Shown piece after piece: positions 36,532 to 41,550 of a DNA stretch of 64,000 nt. Numbering within the stretch: position 1 is the stretch's first letter; every line of letters begins with the position of its first letter. The DNA is taken from assembly GCA_963693055.1 (NCBI GenBank), contig OY843751.1, positions 1,024,001 to 1,088,000 on the forward strand. Direction: 5' to 3'. Below the pieces are notes generated by a model that was not told the origin of the DNA, did not search any database, and worked only from the letters and a program-made list of their open reading frames with translations. The position numbers and the translations under genes were made by a program. The stretch comes from a bacterium. Its GTDB lineage: Bacteria > Zhuqueibacterota > Zhuqueibacteria > Residuimicrobiales > Krinioviventaceae.

Positions 36532-37603
36532 CCAGGGGCAAATAAAAAGGGATGGTTATGATGAAAACCTATATTTTTCGCAAGAGCATAATATTATTCG
36601 CAATTGCTGTATCTCCACTGTTTAACTGTTTTAATCATCAGGACCATCAGGTGACCAGGCCCGAGGTCCCCCGTTATGTGCTGACAGGTACAACAATTGA
36701 TTATACCACCGGACTGCCTTTGGCCAATGTCCCCTTGAAAATAACGGCAGGTATGTTGGTATATGATGTTCGGTTTAACAGCCAAACTCTGCAATCTGAC
36801 AGCAGCGGTTTTTTTTCAATTTCTCCGGTATATCCCGGTAATTATACATTGTACGCGCAAAAAAATGGCTGCTGGTTACAAGGCAGTAAGCTGGAGATAC
36901 AACATGAAGACCGTGATTTTGTATGTAAAGTACCAAATGTAGTTTATGGTCGTTTACATTCATCAAAATTATTTATTGATGATAAAACATTCCCAAATGC
37001 AAATGATTTTTATCGTAGCTTTACTATAAGCAGTTTAACTGGTATTTTCCCAATAAAGTTTTTAGAATATGATCTAAGCTGGTCATATTATTTTGCAAAT
37101 GTAACACTAAAAAACGGCTTGAATACATATTTGTCACATTTTAAGTCTGAAATACCATTAAAGGGAATATATCAATTGGCTATAGGTGGCGGGTATTGCT
37201 GGGGTTGTAAAAAACCGGATTCAATATTGGTGTTTGATCAATGGCAATATACGTTTTTGAATAAATATTCAACAGGTGTTTTTATTAAAGATATTGCCTA
37301 TAACGTGAATGATAAAAATTTATATGCCTGTACTGACTCTTTACTGTACCAGGTAGATGTGAAAACATACGCTATGAATGAAATAGCGGCATTACCCATA
37401 ACCGGTACAATCGCCATGACATGGAATGATAATTATCTTTATCTTTTGCAAGGCACGGAGGACCTTGTCTATAAACTTGACAATCGATTGCGAATCGTTG
37501 ATATTTTTGCCATAGTCGATCAGACAGACAACTTTCAATACACCCAATTGTATGATATGAATTTTGATGGATATAATAATTTGTGGATATCGGTTGAGGG
37601 GTA
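36532..37603 (+). repeat. Direct repeat copy 1 (~1.07 kb) of 38171..39240
   Basis: Starts CCAGGGGCAAATAAAAAGGGATGG and ends GTTGAGGGGTA in both copies; near-identical except ~36941-37199. Confidence 0.95.
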
Positions 37604-37604
37604 A
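36552..37604 (+). CDS. Exported protein A1, probable lipoprotein: carboxypeptidase-regulatory-like beta-sandwich plus probable beta-propeller
   Basis: Signal ending in an atypical lipobox LFNC; LTGTTIDYTTGLPLANV...SDSSGFFSI...PGNYTLYA; C-terminal repeats DIAYN, IAMTWND and DMNFDGYNNLWIS suggest propeller blades (inferred). Confidence 0.75.
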   Translation: MVMMKTYIFRKSIILFAIAVSPLFNCFNHQDHQVTRPEVPRYVLTGTTIDYTTGLPLANVPLKITAGMLVYDVRFNSQTLQSDSSGFFSISPVYPGNYTLYAQKNGCWLQGSKLEIQHEDRDFVCKVPNVVYGRLHSSKLFIDDKTFPNANDFYRSFTISSLTGIFPIKFLEYDLSWSYYFANVTLKNGLNTYLSHFKSEIPLKGIYQLAIGGGYCWGCKKPDSILVFDQWQYTFLNKYSTGVFIKDIAYNVNDKNLYACTDSLLYQVDVKTYAMNEIAALPITGTIAMTWNDNYLYLLQGTEDLVYKLDNRLRIVDIFAIVDQTDNFQYTQLYDMNFDGYNNLWISVEG

Positions 37605-37780
37605 ACTTTATTCAAGTTTACGTTAATTAACTAGTCCGTTATATACGAACTGTTACTTTTCTCTATACTAAATTCAGAATCAAATTTTTGGATGAAAGGT
37701 GATATATTTTCATACAGATTCAATTTCATGTAAAAAGTTTTTATAAAAGATACTTGACTATTGTTTTTTTTTATTTTTTC

Positions 37781-37795
37781 TTGCCCTTGGATCGG
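37781..37795 (+). repeat. 5' arm of the long-range inverted repeat around peptide P1 (pairs with 38166..38180)
   Basis: TTGCCCTTGGATCGG / CTGATCCAGGGGCAA: 15 bp including 2 G-U pairs. Confidence 0.85.
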
Positions 37796-37816
37796 GCGAA
37801 AAATAAGGGGTTAAAA

Positions 37817-38118
37817 ATGAAAAAAATTAAAGTTCTTGGGATTTTTCTTTTATTTTCAGTAATTGTTTTTGGTGGCTTTCAGATTATTAATGTTTCACCT
37901 GCCTATGCTCTAGATAATCCATTTTGTGGTACTGGAATTTATGTCAGAGTGTAATCTATGATGTAGAATGTCAATCTTGTTGGTGCGAACAACTTGGTGG
38001 TGGTCATAGATATTGTTGGGTTTGTCAGTGTTATATTGAGGAAATCGAGTATACTTATATTTCACAGGAGTTAACTTGTGATTATGAGGAGCAATGGCAT
38101 CCCTGCTATGGTTATTAA
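37817..38118 (+). pseudogene. Secreted 10-Cys peptide P1, split by a 1-nt frameshift near 37928-37933
   Basis: Frame 0: MKKIKVLGIFLLFSVIVFGGFQIINVSPAYA-LDNPFCG. The -1 frame continues (Y)WNLCQSVIYDVECQSCWC...CWVCQC...C...CYGY*. The joined product is homologous to P2/P3. Confidence 0.85.
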
Positions 38119-38170
38119 TTGTTAAAACTTAAATAGTCTAAACATACACTGTACAATAGTTTGATCTGAT

Positions 38171-39240
38171 CCAGGGGCAAATAAAAAAGGGATGGTTATG
38201 ATGAAAACCTATATTTTTCGCAAGAGCATAATATTATTCGCAATTGCTGTATCTCCACTGTTTAACTGTTTTAATCATCAGGACCATCAGGTGACCAGGC
38301 CCGAGGTCCCCCGTTATGTGCTGACAGGTACAACAATTGATTATACCACCGGACTGCCTTTGGCCAATGTCCCCTTGAAAATAACGGCAGGTATGTTGGT
38401 ATATGATGTTCGGTTTAACAGTCAAATCCTGCAATCTGACAGCAGCGGTTTTTTTTCAATTTCTCCGGTATATCCCGGTAATTATACATTGTACGCGCAA
38501 AAAAATGAGTGCTGGTTACAAGGTACCAGGTTAGAAATACAACATAATGACCGTGATTTTGTATGCAAAGTACCAAATGTGATTAATGCAAATCTACATC
38601 CAAGTCAAATTTATACAGGTTCTCATTTGTACCCTAATGCAAATGGATTTTATCGTTGTTTTACAATTACAAGTTTAACAGGTGTAATCCCAGTAAAGTT
38701 GATTAGTGCTGATAAAATTTCATATTATTTTGGTAAGGTTACATTAAAGAACGGCTTTGGAAAATATTCATCATTACATGAAACCAATTCTTCATTACAA
38801 AATATATATCAACTTGCACTTGGTGATGAAAAGTTTTGGGGTTGTAAAAAACCGGATTCAATATTGGTGTTTGATCAATGGCAATATACATTTTTAAACA
38901 AATATTCGACAAATGTTTTTATTAAAGATATTGCCTATAACGTGAATGATAAAAATTTATATGCCTGTACTGACTCTTTACTGTACCAGGTAGATGTAAA
39001 AACATACGCTATGAATGAAATAGCGGCATTACCCATAACCGGTACAATCGCCATGACATGGAATGATAATTATCTTTATCTTTTGCAAGGCACGGAGGAC
39101 CTTGTCTATAAACTTGACAATCGATTGCAAATCGTTGATATTTTTGCCATAGTCGATCAGACAGACAACTTTCAATACACCCAATTGTATGATATGAATT
39201 TTGATGGTTATAATAATTTGTGGATATCGGTTGAGGGGTA
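38171..39240 (+). repeat. Direct repeat copy 2 of 36532..37603
   Basis: Same ends as copy 1; divergent block ~38581-38836. Confidence 0.95.
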
Positions 39241-39241
39241 G
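38192..39241 (+). CDS. Exported protein A2, paralog of A1 with divergent central segment
   Basis: N-terminal ~130 aa and C-terminal ~133 aa nearly identical to A1. Confidence 0.8.
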   Translation: MVMMKTYIFRKSIILFAIAVSPLFNCFNHQDHQVTRPEVPRYVLTGTTIDYTTGLPLANVPLKITAGMLVYDVRFNSQILQSDSSGFFSISPVYPGNYTLYAQKNECWLQGTRLEIQHNDRDFVCKVPNVINANLHPSQIYTGSHLYPNANGFYRCFTITSLTGVIPVKLISADKISYYFGKVTLKNGFGKYSSLHETNSSLQNIYQLALGDEKFWGCKKPDSILVFDQWQYTFLNKYSTNVFIKDIAYNVNDKNLYACTDSLLYQVDVKTYAMNEIAALPITGTIAMTWNDNYLYLLQGTEDLVYKLDNRLQIVDIFAIVDQTDNFQYTQLYDMNFDGYNNLWISVEG

Positions 39242-39312
39242 ATATAAATTTCTTACATTTTTTTAAATTCTTGTATTATTAATTGAAATTTGCTAAAAAT
39301 ATTAAAAATATC

Positions 39313-39401
39313 TTGACTTTTACGATAATATTTGCTAATTAAATATCAATCCTTGGGTCGTACAAAACTAAAATTTCAAATAAAATCTTAGGGGATTTAT
39401 T
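39313..39401 (+). promoter_or_regulatory. Duplicated promoter/5'-UTR of P2 (near-identical to 39885..39973 of P3), containing the 5' arm 39347..39359
   Basis: TTGACT -35-like hexamer with a non-consensus AT-rich -10 region; CAATCCTTGGGTC arm; AGGGGA RBS. Confidence 0.65.
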
Positions 39402-39704
39402 ATGAAAAAGATGAAAACTATTAGTCTGGTTCTATTAGTAGCTGTAGTTGTCTTTGGTGGGATTCATATAGTTAATATTGAAAGTGCAAACGCCAGGCCT
39501 GGTTGTCCAGTAGAGAATATGTGCCCTAGCTGGTCATATTGTAAGTCATGTTGGTGTTCTAGTGATGGTTTTACAAGTACCTGGATATGCGAATGTCAAA
39601 AGGCATCTGATTTAGACCATTTCTTTCAAGTAGCAGAAATTGTTCCAGAGTGTGATGAGGGGCCTTGCTATTACGATTGTCCTGAACCTCCAGGTGATGA
39701 TTAA
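39402..39704 (+). CDS. Secreted 10-Cys peptide P2
   Basis: 31-aa Sec-type signal (..VFGG..ANA); acidic mature region C-x5-C-x5-C-x2-C-W-C-x10-C-x-C-x18-C-x4-C-x3-C. Confidence 0.9.
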   Translation: MKKMKTISLVLLVAVVVFGGIHIVNIESANARPGCPVENMCPSWSYCKSCWCSSDGFTSTWICECQKASDLDHFFQVAEIVPECDEGPCYYDCPEPPGDD

Positions 39705-39722
39705 AAATAAATAAAATTTGAT

Positions 39723-39735
39723 GACCCAAGGATTG
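39723..39735 (+). repeat. 3' arm of the long-range inverted repeat around P2
   Basis: GACCCAAGGATTG is the perfect complement of CAATCCTTGGGTC at 39347..39359. Confidence 0.9.
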
Positions 39736-39973
39736 TATTTGTAAAACGGTAAAAATGGATTTATTTTTTAGTTAAGATTTCAAGTTGTTGCTCTCTTGTT
39801 TGGAAAAAGTTTGAAGATAGGTTAATATATTTAAATTTAAAAATAATTTTTTATAATATTTTTTTCGAACAAAAATAAAACATCTTGACTTTTGCGATAA
39901 TAATTGCTAATAAGATATCAATTCTTGGGTCGTACAAAACTAAAATTTCAAATAAAATCTTAGGGGATTTATT

Positions 39974-40273
39974 ATGAAAAAGATGAAAACTATTAGTCTT
40001 GTTCTATTAGTAGCTGTAGTTGTCTTTGGTGGGATTAATATAGTAAATGTTCAAAATGCAGATGCAAGTATTGGCTGTCCAGTAGATAATCTTTGTCCTA
40101 GTTGGGCACATTGTAATAAATGTTGGTGCTCAGATGATAGTGGTGGTGGTGCCAGTACATGGATCTGTGAATGTGAAAGTTTAAAATCTGGTAATAAATA
40201 TCCTGTCGCTGAAATTGAACCGGTATGTAATGAAGGGCCGTGTTATTGGACTTGCCCTGAACCTCCAGGTTGA
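39974..40273 (+). CDS. Secreted 10-Cys peptide P3 (paralog of P2)
   Basis: First 21 aa identical to P2; same 10-Cys scaffold; ends CPEPPG. Confidence 0.9.
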   Translation: MKKMKTISLVLLVAVVVFGGINIVNVQNADASIGCPVDNLCPSWAHCNKCWCSDDSGGGASTWICECESLKSGNKYPVAEIEPVCNEGPCYWTCPEPPG

Positions 40274-40298
40274 TGATTTAATATAAATAATATTTGAT

Positions 40299-40310
40299 GA
40301 CCCAAGGATT
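40299..40310 (+). repeat. 3' arm of the long-range inverted repeat around P3
   Basis: GACCCAAGGATT pairs with AATTCTTGGGTC at 39920..39931 (one U-G pair); followed by a T-run. Confidence 0.9.
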
Positions 40311-40347
40311 TTATTTTTTTGACAAAATTTTTTAAATTGGAGTGGGA

Positions 40348-40917
40348 ATGAAGAAAATTAATTTTACCAATTTATTGTTTATAATAATTTTTGTTTTAAT
40401 GTCATTTGAAGTTATATACCTCAGTGTACAAAATAAAAAGTTAACGAACCAATTGAACAAGCGAGTTTATGCTACTGAAAGCAAACCCGATTTGCCTGTT
40501 GGCACCCAGTTACCAGATTTGTCATTTACTTTACAAAATCAGGATAGAATTGATTTGTCAGCGCATAATGATAAATACTTTTTTGTGTTTTTCTCAACCC
40601 ACTGTCAAGCTTGTGTACAGGATGCTGATACATGGGAAAATATGAATGAGTTGAATACCAAGAATCAAGTGAAAATGATAGGGATCTGTAAAGGTGATCC
40701 TGATGTAGTAAAAGAATTTATGGCACTGCACAAGCTAAACTTTCCTGTTGTTCCTGATCCTGAAAATGAAATTGTTAATCAATTTGGAATAAAATCATTC
40801 CCCAGCAAATGTCTGGTTGATGAAAATAATAAAGTTGTCTTCTATTCCAGAGGATCCTCAGGGAAAAGAGATTTAGAGCAATTAAAAAAGATTGTACCTG
40901 AATTACAGGCAGGTTAA
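40348..40917 (+). CDS. Membrane-anchored TlpA/AhpC-TSA-like thioredoxin-fold protein
   Basis: N-terminal TM; GTQLPDL; FFSTHCQAC; FGIKSFP cis-Pro loop. Confidence 0.88.
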   Translation: MKKINFTNLLFIIIFVLMSFEVIYLSVQNKKLTNQLNKRVYATESKPDLPVGTQLPDLSFTLQNQDRIDLSAHNDKYFFVFFSTHCQACVQDADTWENMNELNTKNQVKMIGICKGDPDVVKEFMALHKLNFPVVPDPENEIVNQFGIKSFPSKCLVDENNKVVFYSRGSSGKRDLEQLKKIVPELQAG

Positions 40918-40920
40918 GAT

Positions 40921-41550
40921 ATGAAGAAGATAGCGATGAATGCTTTGTTGGTTATTGTATTGCTCGCGGTTGGTATTCACTTTGTTATACAAATCAATAA
41001 CAACAATAACGTTTTGGCTGAAATTGATGATTCGCTCAAGCCCTTGTCATATCAGCAGCAAGTTGATTACATGAAACAGGTTTTTGCTCAGGCGGACTCG
41101 TTTCGTTATATTAAATTCAGGGACCAGTTTTTTTATCATGTCTTTCAGGATACGGTCCCGGTTGGGTATGCTAAAATTATCGACAAGGACCTTGCCTGTT
41201 CTACCTGTCGTGATGTGAGATATTTATGCGCCCTGGACAGTGCCTTGTGTGTTAAAGAGGTTATACTTATCAGTGAATTGGACCAGAAACGTATCTATGA
41301 CAAAATACTCCATTTAGAAGATGGTGTAAACCGAGTGGTTGGGAAAAAAGTTTTTAATATTGTGAATTTGTCTGATTTTGTTTCTCAATTCATCAGCACA
41401 TTACCAAGTGATAAAATTTTTAACAAGGATGCGGAGATTGATGTAATCAGTGGTGCCACCAAGACCAGTCACAGTATGTATGAGGGCATTAGAGAGTTTT
41501 TAGATGAAGCGGCTTATTACTCCAGGCAATATCATGCGCAAAATTTGTGA
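40921..41550 (+). CDS. Membrane-anchored protein with CxxC and FMN-binding (flavinylation) motif
   Basis: N-terminal TM; ACSTCRD; DVISGATKTS matches the D-x-x-[ST]-G-A-[ST] ApbE target motif. Confidence 0.7.
   Translation: MKKIAMNALLVIVLLAVGIHFVIQINNNNNVLAEIDDSLKPLSYQQQVDYMKQVFAQADSFRYIKFRDQFFYHVFQDTVPVGYAKIIDKDLACSTCRDVRYLCALDSALCVKEVILISELDQKRIYDKILHLEDGVNRVVGKKVFNIVNLSDFVSQFISTLPSDKIFNKDAEIDVISGATKTSHSMYEGIREFLDEAAYYSRQYHAQNL

What the first reader, a model, noticed from the sequence alone, without database searches (positions are those of the whole stretch)
37781..40320. Each peptide gene is enclosed by a covarying long-range 5'UTR-3'UTR RNA helix
Seen: P2 has CAATCCTTGGGTC (39347-59) / GACCCAAGGATTG (39723-35), perfect, extending inward through G-U, U-A, a bulge and CAAA/UUUG. 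P3 has AATTCTTGGGTC (39920-31) / GACCCAAGGATT (40299-310), where the single change is C-G to U-G. P1 has TTGCCCTTGGATCGG (37781-95) / CTGATCCAGGGGCAA (38166-80) with two G-U pairs. Between P1 and P2 the arms differ by compensatory changes (AAT/ATT to TGC/GCA; G-C to A-U). In P2/P3 the 5' arm begins ~35 nt after a TTGACT hexamer, about where a TSS is expected. Inference: selection on single-strand (most likely RNA) pairing that loops out ~370 nt including the RBS and CDS. Possible roles: end protection of an abundant mRNA, an RNase III site that excises the peptide message from the operon, a terminator with a gene-sized loop (the P3 arm is followed by a U-run), or control like the 5'-3' pairing of type I toxin mRNAs (hok, aapA).
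Basis: partly seen in the sequence, partly recalled or inferred. Interest (0 to 1): 0.88.

Follow-up and report, generated by a model that had tools for sequence, protein, structure and literature searches.

The report
RNA clamp around secreted-peptide genes
Each gene of a small family of secreted cysteine-rich peptides sits between two short complementary sequences that stay complementary as their letters change, so they likely pair in the messenger RNA and likely protect the peptide message from decay, a new variant of a rare but known kind of bacterial mRNA control.

Summary
Confirmed. All three arm pairs lie where stated and fold with probability about 1; they rank 1st, 3rd and 7th of 1234 genes for a flank-to-flank helix. 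The family has 5 copies, 3 here and 2 in one same-genus genome, and all 5 have the helix: 70 of 75 cells pair, 8 of 15 positions change on both sides, one G-U is invariant. Sense-strand G-U bias points to RNA. The helix does not cover the ribosome-binding site, so the type I toxin model fails; a U-run is strong in only 1 of 5 copies; the E. coli RNase III consensus fits poorly. Best reading (0.5): a paired-termini clamp starting at the predicted +1 that stabilises the peptide message over the downstream genes. Closest known: B. subtilis hbs 5'/3'-UTR pairing. P1 is frameshifted. No RNA data were available; only three independent lineages support covariation. The scan noted similar gene-enclosing helices on other DNA.

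The parts
37781..37796 (+). P1 5' arm
   Evidence: pairs with 38165-38180, probability 0.87-1.0 over 15 pairs
37817..38118 (+). P1 peptide gene, frameshifted near 37931; read with X at the break it is 100 aa with 10 Cys
   Evidence: two ORF pieces, both match P2/P3; X read-through; a unitig with no difference spans it in 3 of 3 runs of one sample
38165..38180 (+). P1 3' arm
38192..39241 (+). 349-aa exported protein gene directly after the P1 3' arm (paralogue at 36552-37604)
   Evidence: only weak Pfam hits below cut-off
39313..39341 (+). predicted P2 promoter, TTGACT-17-TAATTA with TG before the -10; predicted +1 at about 39347-39348
   Evidence: genome uses TTGAC[AT]-17-TAnnnT (100 of 297 intergenic hits); this -10 lacks the last T
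39347..39366 (+). P2 5' arm with bulged extension
39402..39704 (+). P2 gene: 100 aa, signal-peptide-like N-terminus, 10 Cys; Shine-Dalgarno AGGGG at 39390-39394
   Evidence: no Pfam, NCBIfam or PDB match
39717..39735 (+). P2 3' arm
39885..39913 (+). predicted P3 promoter, TTGACT-17-TAATAA
39920..39938 (+). P3 5' arm with bulged extension
39974..40273 (+). P3 gene: 99 aa, signal-peptide-like N-terminus, 10 Cys
40293..40320 (+). P3 3' arm (40293-40310) and U-rich tail
40342..40917 (+). membrane-anchored ResA/TlpA-like thioredoxin with CxxC; no promoter of its own found
   Evidence: PF00578 1e-15, PF08534 2e-15; ResA NF002854 below cut-off
40921..41550 (+). FMN_bind-like protein with CxxC
   Evidence: PF04205 E 8e-4, below cut-off
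36532..36541 (+). orphan outer half of the P1 3' arm, in front of the first 350-aa paralogue; no 5' partner nearby

Best explanation
Two complementary arms flank every copy of the peptide gene and covary; they likely pair in the mRNA as a 14-19 bp end-to-end clamp that likely shields the peptide message from decay, so that it would outlast and outnumber the message for the downstream genes. Shown: the arms, their covariation, the sense-strand G-U bias, and that both arms lie outside the ribosome-binding site and the reading frame. Inferred: transcription starts at the 5' arm (P2, P3 and the G001 orthologue; plausible for the second G001 copy; not for P1); the paired 5' end resists 5'-end-dependent attack by RNase E/G or RNase Y; the read-through transcript is cut in the AU-rich DNA-encoded stretch behind the helix, or ends there leakily, and PNPase trims back to the helix, leaving a stable 330-390 nt single-gene RNA. 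The clamp would thus replace the local terminator hairpin that these genes lack and set a high ratio of secreted peptide to its thioredoxin/flavoprotein or partner protein.
For: 5 of 5 copies in 2 genomes have the helix; 70 of 75 cells pair, 8 of 15 positions show two-sided changes, matched arms pair at 42 of 45 cells against 30-35 for the five swaps among three lineages; cross-lineage duplexes lose 6-21 kcal/mol. RNAalifold finds the helix unprompted. All 4 internal departures from Watson-Crick are G-U on the sense strand, one of them in all 5 copies, and the sense duplex is more stable in 5 of 5. The G001 orthologue keeps 81% of the 3' arm inside a block only 45-55% identical. The arm starts 35 nt after TTGACT in 3 of 5 copies in a genome with sigma70-like promoters. 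No local terminator follows P1-P3. RNase E/G, RNase Y and PNPase genes are present, RNase J not over cut-off. Precedent: hbs 14-bp 5'/3'-UTR pairing protects both ends (PMC5737220 section 16); engineered paired termini raise RNA 2- to 24-fold, give 3' ends at the helix and are RNase III independent (PMC1635301 sections 13 and 15).
Against: No transcript ends or half-lives were measured. Only three independent lineages (P1; P2/P3/G001 orthologue; second G001 copy), too few for a formal covariation test; the 4:0 G-U bias alone has p about 0.06, and one terminal C-A mismatch exists. The P2/P3 -10 lacks its last T (13 of 113 TA-starting boxes), and P1 has no fitting -10. The engineered termini are 21-57 bp, longer than these. 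0 of 13 Cys-rich signal-like ORFs near distant thioredoxin homologues have such a helix, so it is no general need of such peptides. The invariant CUUGG core and invariant G-U may mean recognition by a protein, which plain end protection does not require.
Confidence: 0.5

Rival explanations
1. The helix is an RNase III processing stalk: a double cut releases the peptide message from the operon transcript and gives the downstream genes a new 5' end.
For: RNase III gene present over cut-off. B. subtilis RNase III cuts 10-36 bp duplexes whose sites lie up to 505 nt apart, with U-G enriched in the distal box (PMC11780869 section 24). Invariant core and invariant G-U suggest recognition. The duplication of the 350-aa gene begins in mid-arm.
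Against: The E. coli proximal/distal box consensus (PMC1540722 passages) fits at most 3 of 6 positions in any register, though natural sites often fit poorly (PMC5371410 passages). A likeness to this genome's 16S stalk lies in the part that the two other readable relatives do not keep, and the 23S stalk shows none. With the arm at +1 a cut would remove only about 10 nt from the 5' end.
Confidence: 0.2
2. The helix acts as a leaky intrinsic terminator with a gene-sized loop.
For: P3 has 8 U in the first 10 nt after the helix; no local terminator; the authors of PMC1635301 favoured premature termination at paired termini (section 15).
Against: The other four copies have 1, 5, 6 and 6 U of 10, including the G001 orthologue of P3. 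A 350-nt loop must close within a short polymerase pause (general knowledge).
Confidence: 0.1
3. The helix controls translation: either a closed loop that brings the stop codon next to the start for ribosome reuse, or mutual masking of anti-Shine-Dalgarno-like letters so that only full-length RNA is well translated.
For: Both arms stop just outside the ribosome's reach: 18-40 nt before the start codon, 16-47 nt after the stop. In the +30 nt nascent fold of P2 and the G001 orthologue the 5' arm pairs with the Shine-Dalgarno. Distant anti-SD pairing works in vivo (PMC12697547 abstract).
Against: SD opening energy changes by at most 0.3 kcal/mol in 4 of 5 copies when the 3' arm is added, 1.5 in the fifth. 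The spacing is also what any helix compatible with translation needs.
Confidence: 0.1
4. The arms are DNA-level inverted repeats (invertible segment, ends of a mobile cassette, or paired protein-binding half-sites).
For: The copies sit at different loci and in different numbers in the two genomes; leader and core have different histories.
Against: All 5 copies keep the same orientation to their promoter; internal mismatches are all sense-strand G-U; the flanks of the arms show no evident target duplication (read); the orthologous site lacking the gene is a reshuffled paralogue junction, not a clean empty site; a DNA site would keep its letters rather than swap pairs.
Confidence: 0.05

Closest known systems
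Bacillus subtilis hbs mRNA 5'/3'-UTR long-range interaction (Braun, Durand, Condon 2017, PMC5737220)
   Same: About 14 bp between the two UTRs of one small gene, enclosing RBS and CDS without covering the SD; protective role shown there.
   Different: hbs has 5' hairpins before the arm and a terminator after it; here the arm is at the predicted +1, no terminator hairpin follows, downstream genes are in the same unit, and the helix is kept across a paralogous family.
Engineered paired-termini RNAs in E. coli (Nakashima et al. 2006, PMC1635301; author names recalled)
   Same: Inverted repeats close a large loop, protect both ends and define the 3' end.
   Different: Synthetic, 21-57 bp, enclosing antisense RNA rather than a translated gene.
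Long-range intramolecular RNase III substrates of B. subtilis mRNAs (PMC11780869) and rRNA leader-trailer stalks
   Same: Duplex length and loop size fall in the reported range.
   Different: No cut shown; poor fit to the E. coli consensus; no conserved likeness to this lineage's rRNA stalks.
S. aureus icaR (PMC3868564) and type I toxin mRNAs hok, aapA (PMC6733600)
   Same: 5'-3' pairing within one mRNA.
   Different: There the 3' part pairs with the SD and blocks translation; here the SD is outside the helix, the product is a signal-peptide-bearing 10-Cys protein, and no antisense RNA unit was found.

Membership tests
5'UTR-3'UTR long-range interaction of bacterial mRNAs (hbs type) | complementary arms in both UTRs of one gene, about 14 bp or more | tested here: met
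5'UTR-3'UTR long-range interaction of bacterial mRNAs (hbs type) | pairing kept by compensatory change | tested here: met
   8 of 15 positions, three lineages
5'UTR-3'UTR long-range interaction of bacterial mRNAs (hbs type) | both arms on one transcript and effect on mRNA stability | not testable with these tools
   needs RNA end mapping and mutants
5'UTR-3'UTR long-range interaction of bacterial mRNAs (hbs type) | 3' arm just before an intrinsic terminator hairpin | tested here: not met
   no terminator after P1-P3; no common local hairpin in 5 copies
icaR / hok / aapA SD-occluding 5'-3' pairing | 3' element pairs with the Shine-Dalgarno region | tested here: not met
   SD 6-28 nt outside the helix; opening energy not raised
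type I toxin-antitoxin locus | short hydrophobic toxin with an antisense RNA | tested here: not met
   91-100 aa products with 8-10 Cys and signal-like N-terminus; no antisense promoter-terminator unit over the leaders in a consensus scan; no significant Rfam match
RNase III processing stalk | duplex of at least 10-11 bp and RNase III in the genome | tested here: met
RNase III processing stalk | proximal/distal box determinants | tested here: inconclusive
   best 3 of 6; natural sites often deviate
RNase III processing stalk | staggered double cut with 2-nt 3' overhang | not testable with these tools
   needs RNA
intrinsic terminator | U-tract directly after the stem | tested here: inconclusive
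   8 of 10 in P3; 1, 5, 6, 6 of 10 in the others
invertible DNA segment or TIR element | both orientations or a clean empty site | tested here: not met
   5 of 5 same orientation; no clean empty site; contigs cannot exclude rare forms
methylamine dehydrogenase light chain (MauA) for the peptide | match to PF02975 or to a solved structure | tested here: not met
   likeness of the W-x3-C spacing was recalled from memory; fold comparison not obtained

The most novel reading that the evidence does not exclude
The helix makes a natively closed-loop bacterial mRNA: it starts at the first nucleotide, joins the stop codon to the start codon just outside both ribosome footprints, and both protects the RNA and feeds terminating ribosomes back to the start, serving as a reusable expression frame (promoter, 5' arm, signal peptide ... 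3' arm) into which divergent disulfide-rich peptide cores are swapped.
Probability: 0.08. Interest if true: 0.85.

Novelty: new variant of a known kind. Interest (0 to 1): 0.48.

Why it matters
Few natural 5'UTR-3'UTR pairings are characterised in bacteria (the review PMC7821165 names RNAIII, icaR and hbs in the passages read). This one is short, covarying, leaves the RBS free, and sits between a peptide gene and its likely maturation genes, so it offers a clean test of whether an end-to-end clamp can replace a terminator hairpin in setting operon stoichiometry, and a natural template for stabilising short translated mRNAs. Its reach is narrow: one genus, five copies.

Tried and rejected
More homologues: single-protein and profile searches of 5.8 billion and 1.84 billion proteins returned only the family's own members; 1 of 60 relatives matched; a metagenome scan confirmed 0 of 595 pattern hits; ESM Atlas best score 0.77, no lead. 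Arm-to-arm patterns: 6 of 167 phylum genomes matched, a rate like the reversed control; the 4 outside the genus were within or across long ORFs or a repeated palindromic hairpin; 0 of 22 metagenome loci enclose a Cys-rich secreted ORF, one is an inverted satellite. Distant thioredoxin loci: 0 of 13 flagged ORFs beat 60 shuffles (lowest 4 of 60). A bulge-tolerant duplex scan was too noisy and was replaced by an ungapped one. Rfam: only 3 chance-level hits. 16S-stalk likeness rejected: of 8 loci examined only G000, G001, G004 and G014 gave a readable stalk, and the like part differs in the latter two. Sequencing runs: no RNA holder listed. Contigs of 3 runs (one sample, possibly the source) show no strand-changing joint, only two joints from the P2/P3 repeat; contigs drop rare variants, so this is weak. 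Peptide model pLDDT 61; no fold comparison could be obtained. MauA likeness not supported. Positive selection on the core not seen: pN 0.25-0.35 below pS 0.54-0.78. Eight literature searches showed no paper on this family; subscription papers are mostly not covered and no supplements were opened.

Full report
Observation. The six arms are at the coordinates given and have the stated letters. Folding each unit of about 420 nt gives the enclosing helix as the outermost stem with core pair probabilities of 0.97-1.0. To judge chance I scored the best ungapped helix between the 88 nt upstream and 80 nt downstream of 1234 ORFs of this 6.5-Mb genome (at most 400 aa, both flanks mostly non-coding; P1 added by hand). 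P1, P2 and P3 rank 1st, 3rd and 7th; 0.25% of 12,000 mismatched flank pairs reach -22 kcal/mol and none -28. The 2nd-ranked case is a palindromic repeat standing on both sides of its gene. Shuffling the 3' flank 2500 times never reached the observed value.

The enclosed genes. P2 and P3 encode 100 and 99 aa with a signal-peptide-like N-terminus and 10 Cys; they match no Pfam, NCBIfam or PDB sequence. P1 is a homologue broken by a one-base frameshift near 37931; with X at the break it reads 100 aa with 10 Cys, and a unitig without differences covers it in 3 of 3 runs of one sample, possibly the source sample. P3 is followed by a ResA/TlpA-like thioredoxin and an FMN_bind-like protein; P1 lies between two paralogous 350-aa exported-protein genes. 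The label KSB1-like for the organism comes from an earlier scan note, not from a test of mine.

Homologues. Only one of 60 relatives, the same-genus genome G001, has the family; a profile finds 3 copies in G000 and 2 in G001, and nothing else in two very large protein collections or a metagenome scan. Both G001 copies have the helix. One (L002) is the orthologue before the thioredoxin; the other (L004) lies between two paralogues of the 350-aa gene, like P1. Anchored on the shared CUUGG core, 70 of 75 cells pair; 8 of 15 positions change on both sides, one with three pair types; the 5 unpaired cells lie at or near the helix ends. Among the three independent lineages, matched arms pair at 42 of 45 cells, swapped arms at 30-35, and cross-lineage duplexes are much weaker. 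RNAalifold predicts the same helix from a plain alignment, although that alignment misplaces the P1 3' arm. The L002 3' arm is 81% identical to P2/P3 while the sequence on either side is 45-55% identical; it lies inside a block of several hundred bases that is strongly diverged between the genomes, whereas promoter, 5' UTR and signal are 90-99% identical. Synonymous divergence is 0.05-0.19 in the signal and 0.54-0.78 in the core, which suggests core cassettes exchanged behind a constant leader (inference).

RNA or DNA. All four internal departures from Watson-Crick pairing are G-U on the sense strand (one shared by all five copies), none A-C; one terminal C-A exists. The sense duplex is more stable in 5 of 5, by 0.5 to 9.4 kcal/mol. 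All copies have one orientation, and the G000 site orthologous to L004 is a reshuffled junction of paralogues, not a clean empty site. I put RNA-level pairing at about 0.9.

Anatomy. Intergenic TTGAC[AT] in this genome is followed by TAnnnT at spacer 17 in 100 of 297 cases. P2, P3 and L002 have TTGACT-17-TAAT(T/A)A, lacking the last T, with the arm starting 35 nt after the -35, where +1 is expected; L004 fits with spacer 15; P1 has no fitting -10. The helix ends 6-28 nt before the Shine-Dalgarno and 18-40 nt before the start codon, and begins 16-47 nt after the stop. Adding the 3' arm changes the SD opening energy by at most 0.3 kcal/mol in four copies and lowers it by 1.5 in L004: the helix does not silence translation. 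No terminator hairpin follows P1-P3. U content in the first 10 nt behind the helix is 1, 6, 8, 5, 6. The genome encodes RNase III, RNase E/G, RNase Y and PNPase, and no RNase J over cut-off. The E. coli RNase III box consensus fits at most 3 of 6 positions; a likeness to the 16S stalk is not in its conserved part and is absent from the 23S stalk.

Mechanism. The best-supported reading (0.5) is a paired-termini clamp that protects the 5' end and blocks 3' trimming, so that a stable single-gene peptide message accumulates over the downstream genes. The pairing and geometry are shown; start site, 3' end formation and the stability effect are inferred. Rivals: RNase III stalk 0.2, leaky long-range terminator 0.1, translational loop 0.1, DNA-level repeat 0.05. 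Against generality: none of 13 Cys-rich signal-like ORFs beside distant thioredoxin homologues has such a helix, and arm-to-arm pattern scans found no further member.

Known systems and what I read. hbs: abstract and section 16 of PMC5737220. icaR: abstract of PMC3868564. Paired termini: passages and sections 13 and 15 of PMC1635301. B. subtilis RNase III: passages and section 24 of PMC11780869. RNase III determinants: passages of PMC1540722 and PMC5371410. aapA/hok: passages of PMC6733600. Review: passages of PMC7821165. Long-range anti-SD: abstract of PMC12697547. No supplements were opened. The element works most like hbs and the engineered paired termini; it belongs to the broad class of 5'UTR-3'UTR interactions but differs from hbs in starting at the predicted +1, lacking a terminator and sitting inside a longer unit. 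The searches listed showed no description of this family. Earlier scan notes report similar gene-enclosing helices in other genomes; they gave me the hbs and icaR papers and are not counted as support.

Verdict. Real, under selection, most likely an RNA structure; function untested; new variant of a known kind; interest 0.48.

Noticed in passing
window 36532-36541: The duplication of the 350-aa gene begins in the middle of the P1 3' arm, leaving an orphan half arm with no 5' partner, and ends at the gene's stop codon.
   Followed up: partly
window 39974-40900 versus L005 8700-9660: Peptide core, 3' UTR and most of the thioredoxin form one strongly diverged block between the two genomes (thioredoxin 52% identical, neighbours about 90%), suggesting peptide and thioredoxin travel or evolve together.
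   Followed up: partly
window 36552-37604 and 38192-39241; nine or more paralogues in G000: Family of about 350-aa exported proteins with a variable middle region, flanking P1 and the L004 copy; could be receptor or immunity partners.
   Followed up: no
window 37760-37780; L004 1445-1466: Poly-T tracts fill the promoter spacer of P1 and the L004 copy; slippage could tune the promoter. No length variant seen in contigs.
   Followed up: partly
L026-L035 (G148, G100, G051, G048, G069, G128, G155): Unrelated-looking secreted Cys-rich peptides recur beside ResA-like thioredoxins, sometimes with DoxX/MauE-like, FMN_bind-like or about 400-aa genes, across the phylum; arrangement recalls the mau operon (recalled, not shown).
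   Followed up: partly
L012 (G128:C19:54000-62591): Run of four about 400-aa paralogous exported-protein genes with a small Cys-containing ORF upstream and the FMN_bind-like homologue behind.
   Followed up: no
G000:C1:372597-373133 and L042 1180-1570: Small genes bracketed by copies of a palindromic REP-like hairpin, which mimic an enclosing helix.
   Followed up: partly
G000:C1 about 4560600-4560950 (minus strand): The single rRNA operon is preceded by four tandem TTGAC-type promoter-like units.
   Followed up: no
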